A program made the translations under genes and the position numbers. Of a stretch of 64,000 nt of DNA, positions 11,214 through 28,460 are shown in pieces. Under the pieces are notes generated by a model. It had not been told where the DNA came from, did not search any database, and was given only the letters and a program-made list of their open reading frames with translations. The DNA comes from Clostridiales bacterium (GTDB lineage Bacteria; Bacillota; Clostridia; TANB77; CAG-508): positions 64,032-128,031 of the forward strand of contig DQFO01000014.1 of the NCBI GenBank assembly GCA_003525075.1, read 5' to 3'. How positions within the stretch are numbered: the stretch's first letter is position 1; each line of letters begins with the position of its first letter.

Positions 11214-11242
11214 TTGACATTTTTTTCTAATTATACTATAAT
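11214..11242 (+). promoter_or_regulatory. Consensus sigma-70/sigma-A promoter (TTGACA, 17-nt spacer, TATAAT) driving the GC-rich ORF
   Basis: TTGACA at 11214-11219 and TATAAT at 11237-11242 with exactly 17 nt between. AGGAGG lies 7 nt before the ATG at 11299. Confidence 0.6.
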
Positions 11243-11298
11243 AATAATATAGGCTGATTTGCCTATTATAATTTTGTGGCCTACAAGGAGGGCTAATT

Positions 11299-11607
11299 AT
11301 GAGCATTTTTGAGAATGACGGAAACTACTACGCCAACTATTCTGTCCCTGCAATTTCTTTTTGCAACAGAAAAGCATCATCTGCCGAGTTCCGCAAATAC
11401 CTGGCCGAACATCCTTCTGTACAGGAAGATGTTCCGTCCTCTATTATGGAAGAACTCCAGAAGATGCCCAGCGCCAAACCCGCTGGTGCTGCCTACTATG
11501 CAACCCTGAACACTCAGCTGTTCACCAAGTTCTGCAAAGATGTGGCAACGGCGATGGTAGAGAAGTCTCGCGATCCTCAGTGTGTTATGGTCTTCTCTGG
11601 AAACTAA
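11299..11607 (+). CDS. Hypothetical 102-aa protein encoded in a GC-rich (about 50% GC) cassette of foreign composition
   Basis: Strong ribosome-binding site. Codon usage (ctg, gcc, ccc, cgc) is unlike the 27% GC host. No motif recognised. The product ends ...VMVFSGN and may be a fragment. Confidence 0.55.
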   Translation: MSIFENDGNYYANYSVPAISFCNRKASSAEFRKYLAEHPSVQEDVPSSIMEELQKMPSAKPAGAAYYATLNTQLFTKFCKDVATAMVEKSRDPQCVMVFSGN

Positions 11608-11635
11608 AATAGATTTTATATTTTAGTTTTTCACA

Positions 11636-11675
11636 AAAGCCCGCAGATGAAAAAAATCATCTGCGGGCTTTTTAT
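11636..11675. terminator. Strong GC-rich intrinsic terminator (15-bp perfect stem), bidirectional; also closes convergent recO
   Basis: AAAGCCCGCAGATGA-aaaaaa-TCATCTGCGGGCTTT followed by TTT. Confidence 0.8.
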
Positions 11676-11676
11676 A

Positions 11677-12381
11677 TTATCTTTCTAATTTATCATCAAA
11701 ATATAATTTTGAAACAAGTTTTAATTCATTTAAAGATTCATCTTTTAAAGAAAATGAAAATAATTTTTTTGCTGGAGCCATAACAATATATCTAATCGCT
11801 GATACTGTACTTTCAGATATTGAAATTGCCCCTTTATCTAATCTTCCACAATTTTCACATTTAAAGCCATCATTTTTTAGACTAAAATACTTCAAATTAT
11901 TTTTTTCTTTACAATTTACACATTCCATAATTCTTGGTGTAAAACCAAGAAAGCATAATAATTTTAACTTAAATGTACTTATAACTAAATCTATATTTTT
12001 ATCTGTCTCTGATAAAGTATATAACGTATTTAATAACATTTGTAATATTTTATAACAATTTTCATTTTCATCAGTTACATCTCTTACAATTTTTGTAATC
12101 TCTATTGCATAATTAAGTTTATCTAAATCTGTTCTCAAATTATAAAAAACTTCAATAGTATCACAAGAATTTATATTATATGTATTTGACCCTTTATACA
12201 TCATATACTCTCCAAAACAAAATAACTGTGTTCCAGCTAGCAAGGCGCTTCTCGGACGCCTCGCCCCTTTAGCAACACACGATATCTTGCCTAATCCTGG
12301 AGTTAACATTGTAAGCATTTTGTCATAATCTCCTAAATTGCTTTCAGAGATTATTATCCCACTTGTTTTTATTGTCCCCAT
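11677..12381 (-). CDS. recO: DNA repair protein RecO
   Basis: 234 aa with an N-terminal OB fold. Conserved VAKGARR motif. C-terminal zinc motif (CVNC...CENC). Confidence 0.85.
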   Translation of the reverse strand: MGTIKTSGIIISESNLGDYDKMLTMLTPGLGKISCVAKGARRPRSALLAGTQLFCFGEYMMYKGSNTYNINSCDTIEVFYNLRTDLDKLNYAIEITKIVRDVTDENENCYKILQMLLNTLYTLSETDKNIDLVISTFKLKLLCFLGFTPRIMECVNCKEKNNLKYFSLKNDGFKCENCGRLDKGAISISESTVSAIRYIVMAPAKKLFSFSLKDESLNELKLVSKLYFDDKLER

Positions 12382-12511
12382 ATTTTTCCGCCTTTTGTTC
12401 CATATTATTATTTTGCAATTGTTCTTCTATTCCTTGAAATTGTTTTAATTCTAAAAATGTATTAACATCTCCTGTATTTTTAAATGTGTCCCATGCAATT
12501 TTTTTAATCAT
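12344..12511 (-). CDS. Small YqzL-like protein (55 aa), between era and recO; not present in the supplied ORF track
   Basis: MIKKIAWDTFKNTGDVNTFLELKQFQGIEEQLQNNN... resembles the conserved YqzL small-protein family found at this position in Bacillus. Overlaps the recO start by 38 nt. Confidence 0.4.
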   Translation of the reverse strand: MIKKIAWDTFKNTGDVNTFLELKQFQGIEEQLQNNNMEQKAEKYGDNKNKWDNNL

Positions 12512-12576
12512 AAGCTCACTTCCTTTAACATTATCTTTTGCATTTTATTATTTTTTATTCATATTTGTGACTATTA

Positions 12577-26189: not shown

Positions 26190-26699
26190 TTATTTATTAA
26201 GATTATTCTTAATATTTTCAATGCTTTCATTTAATTTGGATGTACAATATGGACACCTATCTGCTTTTATATTAATTTTATTATAACAATGTGGACAAAT
26301 CTTTGTATCTTCTGCTTTTTTCTCTTCTTGTTTTTCTCCTATTTTTGCAATTTTATTCATAACTTTTACAAGTATAAATATTACAAATGCCATTATCAAA
26401 AAGTTTATTATATCTGTTAAAAATGCTCCATATGTTAGTTTTAATTTTCCAATTTCTAATACCCATTCTGAAAAATTTACTCCTCCAAAACATCCTAAAA
26501 TTGGAGAAATAATATTATTTGTAAATGATGTTACAACACTTTGAAATGCACTTCCTATCAATACACCTACTGCTAAGTCTAAAACATTTCCTCTAAGTGC
26601 GAATTCTTTAAATTCCTTAAAAAACTTTCCTTGTTTTTTCTTTGCTTTTTCTATCGCATCTTTTGCTTCTTTTATTTTTTCTTCATTTTCTTTTTTCAT
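26190..26699 (-). CDS. mscL: Large-conductance mechanosensitive channel MscL fused to a C-terminal zinc ribbon
   Basis: FKEFALRGNVLDLAVGVLIGSAF is the MscL signature. The C-terminus carries CPHC...CPYC. Confidence 0.75.
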   Translation of the reverse strand: MKKENEEKIKEAKDAIEKAKKKQGKFFKEFKEFALRGNVLDLAVGVLIGSAFQSVVTSFTNNIISPILGCFGGVNFSEWVLEIGKLKLTYGAFLTDIINFLIMAFVIFILVKVMNKIAKIGEKQEEKKAEDTKICPHCYNKINIKADRCPYCTSKLNESIENIKNNLNK

Positions 26700-26790
26700 T
26701 ATAATATACCTTCTTCCGCTGTTATTATATTACATTTTTATTTACATATCAATATAAAAGTGATATTATATTTTTGAAGGAGATTTTTAT

Positions 26791-27675
26791 ATGATAGATT
26801 TACATATGCATACAACTTATTCAGATGGCACTGAAAGTTGTAGTACAGTTTTAAAAAAATGCCAAGAAAAAAACTTAAATTTTATTTCAATAACAGATCA
26901 TAATACTGCTTTAGTATATGAAGAGTTAGAAGATCAAAGTATTTCTTCACTTTTTAATGGTCATATTATTTCAGGAATAGAGCTTAATACAAAAGCTTTA
27001 AATATTCCTATAGAAATTCTTGGATATGGTATTGATTACAAAAAAATGAATGAACTTGTAAAAAATGTGTATATTCCCGCTGAAGAAAGAAATAAAATCG
27101 AAGTAAAAAGATTATATGATAAATGTATTAATGCTGGAATTGTCCTAGATAAGAACTGTCTGGAAAACTACTCACCAGATATGTTTGCCTCAACATTTTT
27201 CCATAAAGAAATAACAAAACATGCGGAAAATAAAAAAATATTATCTGAAGAAGCTTGGAATTCTAGTAAAATCTTTTATAGACAATATATGTCTGATCCA
27301 AAAACAAAATTATATGTTGAAATGGATGATTTTGTACCAGACTTTGAAACTGCTAGTAATTTAGTTAGAGAAGCTGGTGGTTTAGTATTTATTCCTCATA
27401 TTTATGAATACAAGAAAAATTCAGAACCTATACTAGAACATATTCTTAAAAATTATAAAATTGATGGTATTGAATGTTATTATACAACATTTACTGAAGA
27501 ACAACATAAAAGATTATTAAATCTTTGTAAAGAACGTAATTTATTTGTTTCAGGTGGTAGTGACTTCCATGGTACTATAAAACCAGATGTAGATATTGGT
27601 GTTGGATATGGAAATATGCAAATTCCTGATGAAATTTTAAATTCTTGGAAAAATAAAATTAAATTTTTCAAATAA
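26791..27675 (+). CDS. PHP-domain metal-dependent phosphoesterase
   Basis: MIDLHMHTTYSDG...ITDHN opening and a later FIPH motif, typical of the PHP family. Ribosome-binding site GGAG. Confidence 0.75.
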   Translation: MIDLHMHTTYSDGTESCSTVLKKCQEKNLNFISITDHNTALVYEELEDQSISSLFNGHIISGIELNTKALNIPIEILGYGIDYKKMNELVKNVYIPAEERNKIEVKRLYDKCINAGIVLDKNCLENYSPDMFASTFFHKEITKHAENKKILSEEAWNSSKIFYRQYMSDPKTKLYVEMDDFVPDFETASNLVREAGGLVFIPHIYEYKKNSEPILEHILKNYKIDGIECYYTTFTEEQHKRLLNLCKERNLFVSGGSDFHGTIKPDVDIGVGYGNMQIPDEILNSWKNKIKFFK

Positions 27676-27678
27676 AAT

Positions 27679-27707
27679 TTGACACATTTCGATTTTTGGT
27701 ATATAAT
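27679..27707 (+). promoter_or_regulatory. Consensus sigma-70/sigma-A promoter (TTGACA, 17-nt spacer, TATAAT) for the GC-rich kinase-like ORF
   Basis: TTGACA at 27679-27684 and TATAAT at 27702-27707. GGAGG at 27770-27774 lies 9 nt before the ATG at 27784. Confidence 0.6.
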
Positions 27708-27783
27708 TAATATATTAACCCATTGTATGGATTTGCTATTCAAAAATCGGATAGTAAAAAACAATTTATGGAGGTATGGCACT

Positions 27784-28416
27784 ATGACTACTCGTTGGAT
27801 TGCTGTTACTGGCTTGGACGGAAGTGGCAAAACCACTTTGGTCGACAATCTCGTTAAATTTCTCGAATCTAAGGGATTCAAGGTTTACCGGGATCGTTTC
27901 CCCCACGATAAGTATTTGACCAAGACTCTCTTGAATGAGAGCAAGGATGCTTATACTGATCGTCTGCTCTTTGCACTGGATAATCGCATCGCGGGTACTC
28001 ACCTGCGTGGCATCATTGAGACTGGTGAATATGATTTCATAGTTACTCAGCGTTGTTTCCTGGACAGTTTTGTCCATGGTGCAGTTCAGGGCTATTCCTA
28101 TTCTTGGGTGTCTGAACTCAATCATGTCAGAGATCTTCCCAAGTGTGACATTATGGTCCACATGGTCGCAGAAGCCCGCATCGCGTATGCGCGCATTTGC
28201 AATGATCCTGATGCTGATAAGTTCGAATATCCTGAATACATCGGCAAACAAGAGCAAGAAACCCGGCGGGCATATGTTGAAGTTGAAGCGCATAACAATC
28301 CTGCACTCATCCACTTTAACACTTGCCAAAACATCTACATGGACACCACTCAGATGTCCACTGATGAGGTCTTCGAAACGGTAAGCTCTAAGCTCGTTAA
28401 GATGCTCAACCTCTAA
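27784..28416 (+). CDS. Thymidylate-kinase-like (dTMP/dNMP kinase family) P-loop protein in a GC-rich (about 48% GC) cassette of foreign composition
   Basis: P-loop VTGLDGSGKTT, a DR(F) motif, and a LID-like region. The ORF track opens the frame at 27679, but the ribosome-binding site supports a start at 27784. Confidence 0.6.
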   Translation: MTTRWIAVTGLDGSGKTTLVDNLVKFLESKGFKVYRDRFPHDKYLTKTLLNESKDAYTDRLLFALDNRIAGTHLRGIIETGEYDFIVTQRCFLDSFVHGAVQGYSYSWVSELNHVRDLPKCDIMVHMVAEARIAYARICNDPDADKFEYPEYIGKQEQETRRAYVEVEAHNNPALIHFNTCQNIYMDTTQMSTDEVFETVSSKLVKMLNL

Positions 28417-28421
28417 AAAAT

Positions 28422-28460
28422 AAAGCCCAAGTAGCGTATACGTTACTTGGGCTTTATTTT
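28422..28460. terminator. Strong GC-rich intrinsic terminator for the kinase-like cassette; convergent with the GGDEF gene
   Basis: AAAGCCCAAGTA-gcgtatacgt-TACTTGGGCTTT followed by ATTTTATT. Confidence 0.75.

What the first reader, a model, noticed from the sequence alone, without database searches (positions are those of the whole stretch)
11214..28460. Two unrelated intergenic sites carry cassettes of identical design and foreign composition
The cassettes at 11214-11675 and 27679-28460 share four properties: plus-strand orientation in a minus-strand genome, an exact consensus -35/-10 with 17-nt spacing, a GGAGG ribosome-binding site, and an AAAGCCC...GGGCTTT-type GC-rich terminator. Both have about 48-50% GC, and each fills an intergenic gap precisely. 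The shared architecture suggests a common origin or mechanism, such as the same donor or deliberate construction. The two products (a 102-aa unknown and a thymidylate-kinase-like P-loop protein) might function together.
Basis: inference. Interest (0 to 1): 0.7.

Follow-up and report, generated by a model that had tools for sequence, protein, structure and literature searches.

The report
Conserved GC-rich genes in AT-rich Clostridia
Two unrelated genes in a very AT-rich uncultured gut Clostridium are natural, long-inherited single-gene units that keep a GC-rich, A-avoiding coding sequence and top-strength expression signals across many related species, which points to selection on the transcript rather than recent foreign DNA or engineering.

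Summary
In a 26% GC window, ORF1 (11299-11607) and a Tmk-like kinase gene (27784-28416) have 46-48% GC and GC3 of about 0.5, against 0.07-0.18 for host genes. They carry the only two exact TTGACA-N17-TATAAT promoters in 64 kb, plus GGAGG sites and -28/-29 kcal/mol terminators.

- Both units occur unchanged in many independent gut metagenome assemblies.
- They share no sequence beyond consensus motifs, and their proteins are unrelated.
- The Tmk-like gene follows the same PHP gene in 29 of 34 species of AT-rich Clostridia. It stays GC-richer than its flanks although synonymous sites are randomised.
- ORF1 is a fast-evolving orphan that always sits beside recO. Two related lineages lack it.
- In both families the design (promoter, 5' hairpin, Shine-Dalgarno site, terminator) is conserved while the sequences change.

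Both genes avoid the host's dominant A-ending codons. The Tmk-like coding RNA folds more stably than synonymous shuffles in 12 of 12 orthologs tested.

Best reading: independent, selection-maintained, high-output stable-mRNA units. Their function, and the reason for the selection, remain inferred.

The parts
11214..11242 (+). Cassette 1 promoter, TTGACA-17 nt-TATAAT (12/12 match)
   Evidence: Conserved as TTGACA or TTGACT with 17-nt spacing and TATAAT in orthologous loci.
11249..11266 (+). 5'-terminal stem-loop of the ORF1 transcript (ATAGGC-N6-GCCTAT), starting about 7 nt after the -10 box
   Evidence: Kept in orthologs with a G-U change (L013), a compensatory double change (L077: ATAAGC...GCTTAT), or replaced by a different hairpin (L074, L078).
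11287..11291 (+). Shine-Dalgarno GGAGG (within AAGGAGGG), 7 nt before the ATG
   Evidence: AAGGAGGGC is conserved in L013, L015, L070, L071 and L077.
11299..11607 (+). ORF1: a 102-aa orphan protein predicted to be a helical bundle. GC 0.48, GC3 0.53, A3 0.18.
11635..11672 (+). GC-rich intrinsic terminator hairpin. It is flanked by an A-run and a T-run and lies between the convergent ORF1 and recO genes, so it is probably bidirectional.
   Evidence: -27.8 kcal/mol, z = -8.0. A compensatory change is seen in L013 (GCCCACAGA...TCTGTGGGC).
26791..27675 (+). PHP-domain phosphoesterase gene with host-like composition (GC3 0.12). It is the conserved upstream neighbour of the Tmk-like gene.
   Evidence: Pfam PF02811. 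The best NCBIfam hits are RNase RNM and 3',5'-nucleoside bisphosphate phosphatase, both far below their cut-offs. Adjacent to the Tmk-like gene in 29 of 34 species.
27679..27707 (+). Cassette 2 promoter, TTGACA-17 nt-TATAAT (12/12 match)
   Evidence: A 12/12 promoter is found upstream of 25 of 34 orthologs, and 11/12 or better upstream of 30.
27732..27758 (+). 5'-UTR stem-loop (10 bp) in the 76-nt leader
   Evidence: Orthologs carry different hairpins at the equivalent place, for example GTCCTATGTATAGGAC in L039-L045.
27770..27774 (+). Shine-Dalgarno GGAGG, 9 nt before the ATG
   Evidence: GGAGG or AGGAGG is present in most orthologs.
27784..28416 (+). Tmk-like P-loop kinase gene, 210 aa. GC 0.46, GC3 0.50, A3 0.13.
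   Evidence: Translation. Pfam PF02223 scores 35.6 bits (cut-off 27). TIGR00041 scores 49 bits, below its cut-off of 83. AlphaFold pLDDT is 92, with a Tmk fold at TM about 0.73 and about 20% identity. The family alignment has an invariant GLDGSGKT motif.
28417..28460 (+). GC-rich intrinsic terminator (near-perfect 44-nt palindrome) between the convergent Tmk-like and GGDEF response-regulator genes. Probably bidirectional.
   Evidence: -29.1 kcal/mol, z = -9.1. Orthologs have strong but unrelated terminator hairpins.

Best explanation
The two cassettes are independent, natural, chromosomally inherited single-gene transcription units of an uncultured, very AT-rich gut Clostridia lineage. They are not pieces of one foreign or engineered insert.

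Each is built for maximal, autonomous expression. Each has a perfect sigma-70-type promoter, a stem-loop at or near the 5' end of the transcript, a full GGAGG Shine-Dalgarno site and a very strong intrinsic terminator.

Each keeps a coding sequence whose composition is nearly the inverse of the host's. A at third codon positions is 0.13-0.18 against 0.55. Base composition is balanced, with A about equal to U and G about equal to C.

This composition persists in orthologs whose synonymous sites have been randomised. I therefore infer that it is held by selection acting on the transcript. The most likely selected property is a compact, heavily base-paired, nuclease-resistant, long-lived and high-output mRNA.

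One product is a divergent thymidylate-kinase-fold P-loop kinase that is evolutionarily tied to a PHP phosphoesterase. It is probably a nucleotide-monophosphate kinase of unknown substrate. The other is a rapidly evolving 102-aa helical protein of unknown role that entered the recO-glycosyltransferase junction in an ancestor of this genus-level group.

Shown: natural occurrence, synteny, persistence of the composition, conservation of the design, and excess predicted folding.
Inferred: selection as the cause, mRNA stability as the target, and kinase activity.
For: Natural occurrence.
- recO, the 538-nt gap and the glycosyltransferase gene, and the GGDEF, Tmk-like and PHP genes, are found in contigs of 0.2-1.6 Mb from many samples. 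The cassette 1 region is nearly identical in 6 of them.

Coding status of ORF1.
- All 4 strain substitutions are synonymous.

Persistence of the composition in the Tmk-like family.
- The gene is 6-21 GC points above its flanks in 33 AT-rich Clostridia genomes (one short contig had no flanks to compare). Distant homologs in high-GC phyla match their own hosts.
- The gene follows the PHP gene in 29 of 34 species. Pairwise identities of the two proteins correlate (Spearman 0.64).
- Codon identity at conserved residues equals the random expectation beyond the closest species, for example 0.35 observed against 0.37 expected. GC3 nevertheless stays at 0.21-0.58, against 0.1-0.2 for the hosts.

Persistence of the composition in the ORF1 slot.
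- The slot gene has GC3 0.31-0.53 in lineages whose recO is 82-99% identical. This includes L078, where recO synonymous sites are saturated (0.66 observed, 0.63 expected) and the slot gene has GC3 0.50.

Conserved design with changing sequence.
-.
- Among ORFs with at least 80 nt of upstream gap, GC3 outliers have 12/12 promoters in 40% of cases, against 5% for ordinary ORFs. Median downstream hairpin energy is -22 against -9 kcal/mol.

Codon pattern.
- The window's two genes contain no TTA, ACA or CCA codons and one AGA each. The host uses these for 72%, 79%, 74% and 89% of Leu, Thr, Pro and Arg.
- T3 is unchanged. A3 is replaced by C and G, or mainly by G in clade L039-L045. The shift also occurs in two-codon families.
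- Base skews are roughly halved to a third of the PHP values.

Folding.
- Tmk-like coding regions fold better than shuffles that keep the protein and the codon usage, in 12 of 12 orthologs (z = -3.2 to -8.0). PHP controls average about -0.6 and host 300-nt segments -0.68 +/- 1.22.
- This holds even where GC3 has dropped to 0.21-0.29 (L047, L037, L027).
Against: - No expression, half-life or structure-probing data exist for this uncultured organism. High expression and stability are inferred from sequence alone.
- The folding excess for ORF1 is modest (z = -0.7 to -3.4). Some ordinary host segments (recO 5' end, rpsL, fusA) reach similar z values.
- No conserved consensus structure is detectable across Tmk-like orthologs. 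Any selection would be for general foldedness, which is an unusual target.
- Holding GC3 near 0.5 against a bias toward about 0.1 needs a scaled selection coefficient of about 2 per site. This is my calculation from a two-state mutation-selection model. That is large.
- GC3 varies widely among orthologs (0.21-0.58). This could also be read as unequal decay.
- The PHP/Tmk correlation is only moderate (0.64). One species pair shows a recombination break between the two genes, so some exchange of Tmk-like alleles within the clade is possible.
- I could not inspect whole genomes for the tRNA set, a canonical tmk, or the total number of such genes.
Confidence: 0.5

Rival explanations
1. Decoupling from the bulk tRNA pool (a stress- or starvation-adapted codon dialect). 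Under this reading, the genes avoid the A-ending codons read by the heavily used U34 tRNAs. They can then still be translated when those tRNAs are uncharged, under-modified or cleaved.
For: - There is near-total avoidance of TTA, AGA, ACA, CCA, TCA, ATA, AAA and CAA. These are the host's major codons and also the ones preferred in tuf, fusA and rps genes.
- The concept has precedent. Selective charging of isoacceptors is known (Elf et al. 2003, from my own knowledge). A 2026 preprint reports stress-adapted codon usage with rare isoacceptors in Salmonella virulence genes (bioRxiv 10.64898/2026.02.22.707322).
Against: - The shift is just as strong in families normally served by one tRNA: Phe, Tyr, Asn, Asp and His toward C, and Lys and Gln toward G. 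Isoacceptor choice cannot explain that.
- Different clades replace A with different bases (G in L039-L045, C and G elsewhere). This points to composition rather than particular tRNAs.
- This model does not predict the excess folding.
- The tRNA gene set of the genome could not be examined.
Confidence: 0.17
2. Horizontally acquired genes from GC-richer donors that are still ameliorating. Strong promoters and ribosome-binding sites then evolved to compensate for poor codon adaptation.
For: - The composition is atypical.
- ORF1 is absent from two related lineages where recO and the glycosyltransferase gene abut. It has no homolog outside the clade.
- Distant Tmk-like homologs live in high-GC phyla.
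- GC3 differs among orthologs as if decaying.
- Promoter up-mutations are a known compensation for poor codon usage (Amoros-Moya et al. 2010, from my own knowledge).
Against: - With an equilibrium GC3 of about 0.1, the excess GC should vanish well before synonymous sites saturate. Yet the anomaly persists across saturated divergences in both families.
- The Tmk-like gene is syntenic with PHP in 29 of 34 species.
- No donor-like homolog above 44% identity was found outside AT-rich Clostridia.
- There are no phage or plasmid relatives.
- There are no integrase or tRNA genes and no convincing target-site duplication.
Confidence: 0.13
3. Escape from an A- or UA-directed endoribonuclease. The nuclease could be the housekeeping decay machinery or a toxin or defence RNase that shuts down the A-rich bulk transcriptome. 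A-poor transcripts would survive and keep being translated.
For: - Loss of A is the one feature common to all clades.
- UA dinucleotides are depleted at codon junctions more strongly than in the PHP gene (z = -1.9 against -0.8).
- ORF1 evolves about nine times faster than recO at the protein level, as arms-race genes do.
- Ribosome-dependent toxins such as HigB prefer A-rich codons (from my own knowledge).
Against: - No such nuclease was identified here.
- ACA (MazF-type) sites are not depleted.
- PADLOC matches are marginal.
- The folding excess is not required by this model.
Confidence: 0.1
4. Engineered construct, chimeric assembly or contamination.
For: Textbook promoter, RBS and terminator parts, and a sharp change in composition.
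Against: - The same junctions occur in many independent assemblies from different studies and assemblers, including contigs of 1.5-1.6 Mb.
- Diverged orthologs sit at the same sites in other species.
Confidence: 0.01
5. The GC-rich segments are not ordinary protein genes. They would be structured non-coding RNAs, or they would carry an antisense overlapping gene (the 187-aa antisense ORF at 27766-28329).
For: - In AT-rich genomes, GC-rich islands are often RNA genes.
- Gene callers skipped ORF1 in six assemblies.
- The antisense frame is open.
Against: - There are no Rfam, tRNA or tmRNA hits.
- Substitutions are synonymous or codon-structured.
- The Tmk-like protein family is strongly conserved and folds confidently.
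- There is no conserved RNA structure.
- The open antisense frame follows automatically from the absence of TTA, CTA and TCA codons. It is closed in orthologs that keep TTA.
Confidence: 0.02

Closest known systems
Phage 'morons' (autonomous promoter-ORF-terminator units of deviant composition inserted between prophage genes; Juhala/Hendrix, from my own knowledge)
   Same: A single ORF with its own sigma-70 promoter and factor-independent terminator. It is wedged between neighbouring genes, and its composition differs sharply from the flanks.
   Different: Not in a prophage, and no viral relatives. The Tmk-like unit is inherited vertically across at least 29 species next to the same housekeeping gene. 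The composition is maintained rather than a passing mark of recent arrival.
Gene classes with stress-adapted or rare-isoacceptor codon usage (Elf et al. 2003, from my own knowledge; Goormaghtigh & Bumann 2026, bioRxiv 10.64898/2026.02.22.707322), and bldA/TTA control in Streptomyces
   Same: A subset of genes uses codons that the rest of the genome, including the ribosomal genes, avoids. The bias runs opposite to the genomic GC bias.
   Different: Here the whole ORF is recoded, not a few codons. The shift extends to single-tRNA families and comes with balanced base composition and excess RNA folding.
Canonical thymidylate kinase (Tmk; PF02223 / TIGR00041)
   Same: A P-loop GLDGSGKT motif, the overall Tmk fold (TM about 0.73), and Pfam domain score above the gathering cut-off.
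   Different: Only about 20% identity to solved Tmks. The score is below the NCBIfam equivalog cut-off (49 against 83 bits). The family has its own invariant motifs (FLDSFVHG, DPDADKFE). The substrate is unknown.
mRNA stabilisers of Firmicutes: 5'-terminal stem-loops and strong SD 'Stab-SD' elements (ermC, aprE, cryIIIA leaders; from my own knowledge)
   Same: A hairpin at or near the transcript 5' end, a full-consensus SD and a strong 3' terminator hairpin. The hairpin is kept by compensatory changes.
   Different: Here the coding region itself also appears to be tuned toward a GC-rich, A-poor, over-folded state. That has not been described for those examples.
Horizontally acquired islets with compensatory promoter evolution (Amoros-Moya et al. 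2010, from my own knowledge)
   Same: Atypical codon usage coupled to unusually strong expression signals. ORF1 has empty sites in related lineages.
   Different: No amelioration over saturated synonymous divergence. No donor and no mobility genes were found.

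Membership tests
Engineered / synthetic expression cassette | The sequence and its junctions are absent from independent natural assemblies | tested here: not met
   The same loci are found in many metagenome contigs from different projects. The cassette 1 region is nearly identical in 6 of them.
Recently acquired horizontal-transfer islet | Composition deviates from the host | tested here: met
   GC3 is 0.53 and 0.50, against 0.07-0.18 for other ORFs.
Recently acquired horizontal-transfer islet | Patchy presence, with empty sites in close relatives | tested here: inconclusive
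   ORF1: empty sites occur only in lineages with recO about 80% identical (L079, L080), and the slot is occupied in all closer ones. Tmk-like: present after the PHP gene in 29 of 34 species.
Recently acquired horizontal-transfer islet | A closer homolog exists in a donor lineage or mobile element of matching composition | tested here: not met
   Every Tmk-like hit of at least 44% identity is in AT-rich Clostridia. ORF1 has no outside homolog. No phage or plasmid hits.
Recently acquired horizontal-transfer islet | Mobility signatures (integrase, tRNA target, target-site duplication) | tested here: not met
   No tRNA genes in the window. The neighbours are housekeeping genes. Only 9-10-nt AT-rich repeats of chance quality flank the units.
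Phage moron | Autonomous promoter + ORF + terminator unit | tested here: met
Phage moron | Located within a prophage, between phage genes | tested here: not met
   The flanks are recO, era, glycosyltransferase, PHP and GGDEF genes. No viral-contig relatives.
Thymidylate kinase (dTMP kinase) | Match to the family profile above the curated threshold | tested here: inconclusive
   Pfam PF02223 scores 35.6 bits (cut-off 27), so that threshold is met. NCBIfam TIGR00041 scores 49.1 bits (cut-off 83.25), so that threshold is not met.
Thymidylate kinase (dTMP kinase) | P-loop NTP-binding motif and Tmk fold | tested here: met
   GLDGSGKT is invariant in 21 sequences. Foldseek top hits are all Tmk structures, with TM 0.67-0.76.
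Thymidylate kinase (dTMP kinase) | Phosphorylates dTMP, and is the cell's only or essential Tmk | not testable with these tools
   No biochemistry was possible.
Stress-adapted / rare-isoacceptor codon class | Avoids codons read by the major isoacceptors | tested here: met
   TTA, ACA, CCA, AGA, ATA and TCA are nearly absent.
Stress-adapted / rare-isoacceptor codon class | The bias is confined to amino acids with alternative tRNAs | tested here: not met
   Two-codon NNY families shift from about 10% to 40-60% C, and Lys and Gln shift to G. That each of these families is read by a single tRNA is general knowledge and was not checked in this genome.
Stabilised, highly structured mRNA | A conserved 5'-proximal stem-loop and a strong 3' terminator hairpin | tested here: met
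   Compensatory changes are seen in L013 and L077.
Stabilised, highly structured mRNA | The coding region is more folded than synonymous alternatives | tested here: met
   Tmk-like: z = -3.2 to -8.0 in 12 of 12 orthologs, against about -0.6 for PHP. ORF1 is weaker, at -0.7 to -3.4.
Stabilised, highly structured mRNA | Long half-life and high abundance in vivo | not testable with these tools
   No transcriptome data are accessible here.

The most novel reading that the evidence does not exclude
These AT-rich gut Clostridia may maintain a dispersed class of 'insulated' genes: the Tmk-like kinase, ORF1 and other GC-rich orphans seen near the Tmk-like gene in related species. Their transcripts would be deliberately written in an anti-host nucleotide dialect, A-poor, base-balanced and over-folded, and driven by perfect promoters. 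They could then persist and be translated when the A-rich bulk transcriptome or its U34 tRNAs are shut down by starvation, dormancy, a toxin or a phage-defence RNase or anticodon nuclease. Composition itself would act as a regulatory channel that has been conserved across a deep clade (PHP proteins 55-96% identical).
Probability: 0.15. Interest if true: 0.85.

Novelty: new variant of a known kind. Interest (0 to 1): 0.6.

Why it matters
Atypical composition is routinely read as recent horizontal transfer. Gene callers trained on the host can miss such genes altogether: ORF1 was not called in six assemblies.

Here, at least one gene family keeps a strongly anti-host composition and maximal expression signals across dozens of species after synonymous sites have been randomised. 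If selection is the cause, three things follow.
- It is an unusually clear natural case of selection on whole-transcript composition and foldedness in bacteria.
- It offers a testable design rule for stable, high-output mRNAs in AT-rich Firmicutes.
- It is a warning for island-detection and annotation pipelines applied to uncultured gut taxa.

It also flags an uncharacterised, highly conserved Tmk-fold kinase linked to a PHP phosphoesterase.

Tried and rejected
- Structured RNA gene. Rfam gathering and permissive searches hit only the terminator, weakly. No tRNA or tmRNA was found.
- Conserved RNA structure in the Tmk-like coding region. RNAalifold on 27 orthologs found none.
- Antisense overlapping gene. 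The open frame is a by-product of the missing TTA, CTA and TCA codons and is not conserved.
- Phage or plasmid origin. No relatives in IMG/VR, INPHARED or PLSDB beyond canonical Tmks at 22-31% identity.
- Defence-system membership. Only marginal PADLOC hits.
- Homology between the two cassettes. None beyond the consensus boxes and the AAAGCCC stem base.
- Target-site duplications. Only short AT-rich repeats of chance quality.
- MazF-type ACA avoidance. Not seen.
- Translational optimisation as in ribosomal genes. Rejected, because tuf, fusA and rps genes prefer the very A-ending codons these genes avoid.
- Head-on orientation as the driver. Rejected, because in many species the PHP and Tmk-like pair is co-oriented with its neighbours and still GC-rich.
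- GTDB placement (TANB77/CAG-508). This is only my recollection and could not be verified. A literature search gave nothing on codon usage in that group.

Full report
**What is in the window**

The window is 26.4% GC, and about 53 of its 58 ORFs lie on the minus strand. Two plus-strand ORFs stand out.
- ORF1 (11299-11607, 102 aa) has GC 0.476.
- A 210-aa gene (27784-28416) has GC 0.458.

Their GC3 values are 0.53 and 0.50. Every other ORF of at least 100 aa has 0.07-0.18, including tuf, fusA, rpsG and rpsL.

The exact pattern TTGACA-N17-TATAAT occurs only twice in 64 kb. Both copies sit in front of these two ORFs. Each ORF has a GGAGG site 7-9 nt upstream of its ATG. Each is followed by a hairpin of -27.8 or -29.1 kcal/mol (z = -8 and -9). 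These stems are much GC-richer than the other strong hairpins in the window.

- Gene 2 starts at ATG 27784. The TTG at 27679 is the -35 box.
- Cassette 2 is preceded on the same strand by a PHP-domain gene (26791-27675).
- Both terminators lie between convergent genes and are flanked by A and T runs. They probably also serve recO and the GGDEF response-regulator gene.

**Not synthetic and not an artefact**

Exact-protein look-ups of the flanking recO and GGDEF genes return contigs of 0.2-1.6 Mb from many independent gut metagenome assemblies. All show the same gene order and the same 538-nt recO-glycosyltransferase gap. The cassette 1 region of six such contigs is nearly identical to the window. 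The four substitutions inside ORF1 are all synonymous. This also shows that ORF1 is a real coding gene, even though those assemblies did not call it.

Record titles of the closest genomes read 'Clostridium sp. 26_21', 'Clostridium sp. CAG:343' and 'uncultured Clostridia bacterium' MAGs from human and animal guts.

**What the two genes are**

ORF1 has no match in Pfam, PHROGs, PADLOC or NCBIfam. Its predicted structure is a moderately confident helical bundle with no significant structural neighbour.

A profile search of 1.84 billion representative proteins finds only a handful of relatives, each 82-102 aa long.

The second protein is a divergent thymidylate-kinase-fold P-loop protein.
- Pfam PF02223 scores 35.6 bits, above its gathering score.
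- The NCBIfam dTMP-kinase equivalog scores 49 bits, against a cut-off of 83.
- The AlphaFold model has pLDDT 92. All top Foldseek hits are Tmk structures, at TM about 0.73 and about 20% identity.
- The family is tightly conserved. GLDGSGKT, FLDSFVHG and DPDADKFE are invariant across 21 members.

The two proteins are unrelated to each other. The two regulatory regions share only the consensus boxes and the AAAGCCC base of the terminator stem.

**The Tmk-like unit is old and vertically inherited, yet stays GC-rich**

A scan of one genome per species found the family in 34 AT-rich Clostridia genomes at 44-91% identity. Relatives at only 35-42% identity occur in high-GC Planctomycetota, Alphaproteobacteria, Mycobacterium and others.

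In the 33 AT-rich genomes where flanking sequence was available, the gene is 6-21 GC points above its flanks, with GC3 0.21-0.58. In the high-GC organisms it matches the host.

In 29 of the 34 species analysed the gene sits 25-197 nt downstream of the same PHP gene, which has ordinary host composition. Pairwise identities of the two proteins correlate (Spearman 0.64).

At conserved amino acids, the fraction of identical codons between the window and all but the two closest species equals the random expectation from codon usage. Examples are 0.46 against 0.39, 0.35 against 0.37 and 0.38 against 0.40. The PHP gene behaves the same way. Synonymous sites are therefore saturated.

Under a two-state model with equilibrium GC3 near 0.1, the GC excess decays faster than synonymous identity. 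A neutral foreign gene should thus have become host-like long ago. This is my inference. Some continuing force must keep the composition. No GC-rich reservoir was found in viral contigs, phage genomes or plasmids.

**ORF1 is a fast-evolving gene in a fixed slot, gained within the clade**

Every detectable relative (P0002, P0003, P0126-P0128, P0130) lies convergent to recO.

Protein identity to the window falls to 46%, 43% and 38%, while the adjacent recO stays 94% and 87% identical and era stays 96%. ORF1 therefore evolves roughly nine times faster than recO.

In a lineage with recO at 82% identity (L078), the slot holds an uncalled 85-aa GC-rich ORF. It shares only a K-x-AG-xx-YY-x-L motif with ORF1 (hhalign E = 0.011, so homology is uncertain).

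In two lineages with recO at 80-81% identity, recO and the glycosyltransferase gene are 24 and 3 nt apart, with no cassette. The cassette is thus most simply an old insertion into an operon junction.

The slot gene has GC3 0.31-0.53 everywhere. In L078 it is 0.50, although recO synonymous sites are saturated there (0.66 observed, 0.63 expected). The same persistence therefore holds, although the shallower depth makes the case weaker than for the Tmk-like gene.

**The design is conserved while the sequence is not**

For ORF1, orthologs keep several elements.
- A TTGACA or TTGACT box with 17-nt spacing and TATAAT.
- A stem-loop starting at the predicted transcript 5' end. It shows a G-U change in L013, a compensatory double change in L077, and unrelated hairpins in L074 and L078.
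- AAGGAGGGC or AGGAGG.
- A GC-rich terminator, with a compensatory change in L013.

For the Tmk-like gene, 25 of 34 orthologs have a 12/12 promoter and 30 have at least 11/12. A leader hairpin of varying sequence, GGAGG and a strong but unrelated terminator follow.

Other GC3-outlier ORFs were seen by chance in the 10-kb flanks of related species.
- A 337-aa HIT-domain protein.
- A second Tmk-like paralog.
- Orphans of 102-187 aa, some of them conserved between sister species.

These often have the same layout. Among ORFs with an upstream gap of at least 80 nt, 40% of outliers have a 12/12 promoter, against 5% of ordinary ORFs. Median downstream hairpin energy is -22 against -9 kcal/mol. This sample is dominated by Tmk-like orthologs, so it is only suggestive.

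**What exactly is unusual about the coding sequences**

Host genes put A at 55% of third positions. The two genes have 13-18% A there. T3 is unchanged, and C3 and G3 are raised.

The host's major codons are TTA (72% of Leu), ACA (79% of Thr), CCA (74% of Pro) and AGA (89% of Arg). In the two genes TTA, ACA and CCA are absent, and AGA is used once in each. These are also the codons preferred by tuf, fusA and rps genes, so this is not ordinary translational optimisation.

Across Tmk-like orthologs, loss of A-ending codons is universal. The replacement differs by clade: mainly G in L039-L045, and C plus G elsewhere. The shift is equally strong in two-codon families such as Phe, Tyr, Asn, Asp, His, Lys and Gln.

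The result is a nearly balanced base composition. AT skew is 0.04 and GC skew 0.10, against 0.13 and 0.22 for the PHP gene on the same strand. Amino-acid composition is only mildly shifted.

**Folding**

The Tmk-like coding RNA folds more stably than shuffles that keep the protein and the codon usage, in all 12 orthologs tested (z = -3.2 to -8.0). This includes orthologs whose GC3 has fallen to 0.21-0.29. PHP controls average about -0.6.

Within the window, 86 host 300-nt segments give z = -0.68 +/- 1.22. The two halves of the Tmk-like gene give -3.6 and -2.7, and ORF1 gives -1.9. ORF1 orthologs range from -0.7 to -3.4.

No common structure is detectable across orthologs. If this is real, the selected trait is general foldedness rather than a specific fold.

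UA and CG dinucleotides are depleted at codon junctions more than in the PHP gene.

**Interpretation**

The best-supported reading has three parts.
- These are independent, selection-maintained, autonomous high-expression units.
- Their transcripts are tuned to be compact and stable through a 5' hairpin, a strong SD, an A-poor and base-balanced over-folded coding region, and a strong 3' hairpin.
- The pattern of base replacement, the shift in single-tRNA codon families and the folding excess fit this better than a tRNA-isoacceptor explanation.

The tRNA-isoacceptor explanation remains a serious rival. Its concept has a recent experimental precedent in Salmonella. Escape from an A- or UA-directed RNase and slow amelioration of ancient transfers are further rivals. 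An engineered origin, an RNA gene and an antisense gene are rejected.

The function of both proteins is open. The kinase is probably a nucleotide-monophosphate kinase working in the same pathway as the PHP phosphoesterase, whose best profile matches are RNase AM-type and pAp phosphatase-type families, both far below their cut-offs. This is inference from conserved adjacency only.

**Limits**

- Everything about expression and stability is inferred from sequence.
- I could not read whole genomes. The total number of such genes, the tRNA repertoire and the presence of a canonical tmk are unknown.
- The species proxy is a single neighbouring gene.
- One species pair shows a recombination break between the PHP and Tmk-like genes.
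- The scaled selection needed per site, about 2 by my calculation, is high.

Noticed in passing
window 11299-11607; L001-L006 4706-5243: ORF1 was not called as a gene in six metagenome assemblies that carry it nearly unchanged. It was called in others. The GC-rich slot gene in L078 was also uncalled. Host-trained gene callers seem to miss these compositionally deviant genes.
   Followed up: partly
L079 3718-3741; L080 3709-3711: In two related lineages (recO 80-81% identical), recO and the glycosyltransferase gene are only 24 and 3 nt apart. These give clean 'empty sites' for the ORF1 cassette.
   Followed up: yes
L048 5781-7890; L050 3551-6354; L054 6297-6605 and 9874-10362; L055 5776-6090; L056 7497-7916; L046 7358-7744; L041/L042 about 6405-6818; L028 2866-3879: Further GC3-rich ORFs lie near the Tmk-like gene in other species. 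Most are orphans of 95-337 aa. One has a HIT domain and one has a weak PIN match. Several have 11-12/12 promoters, AGGAGG and strong terminators. The region downstream of the Tmk-like gene may be a hotspot for such genes.
   Followed up: partly
L052 2251-2898 and 4131-4769: One species carries two Tmk-like paralogs 1.2 kb apart. Both are GC-rich (GC3 0.48 and 0.41). The second has a 12/12 promoter. Here the upstream gene is not the PHP gene.
   Followed up: no
window 26791-28416 versus L023 4009-5633: Between the window and L023, the PHP gene is almost identical at synonymous sites (97% same codon). The adjacent Tmk-like gene is much more diverged (70% same codon, 91% amino-acid identity). This suggests a recombination breakpoint between the two genes.
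   Followed up: no
window 12344-12511 (-): A 55-aa ORF overlaps the start of recO by 38 nt. It is called, with 55-63 aa, in every related locus examined, so it is probably a real small gene of unknown function.
   Followed up: no
window 12052-12351 (first 300 nt of recO after codon 10, - strand): The 5' part of the recO coding region is the most over-folded host segment in the window (z = -4.4 against synonymous shuffles). The 5' parts of rpsL and fusA are also strongly negative.
   Followed up: no
window 27766-28329 (-): A 187-aa antisense ORF is codon-aligned with the Tmk-like gene. It exists because the sense strand has no TTA, CTA or TCA codons. It is closed in orthologs that use TTA, so it is a by-product rather than a gene.
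   Followed up: yes
L038 8881-9402; L026 8818-9033: A GC-rich stretch translates into tandem peptide repeats (KGTDPxxKRDRPQxKKGPTPxQ, period about 22 aa). It is likely a GC-rich tandem DNA repeat in an otherwise AT-rich genome.
   Followed up: no
window 13476-15773 (-): A 765-aa protein between era and a Dus-family gene has no Pfam hit on record. It is conserved in all related loci.
   Followed up: no
window 9572-10157; L001-L006 about 6225-6820: The spacer between the glycosyltransferase gene and the ABC-2 permease gene varies by about 150 nt among strains that are otherwise nearly identical. It sometimes carries a small called ORF of 31-53 aa. In L015-L017 an extra 581-aa gene lies in this stretch.
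   Followed up: no
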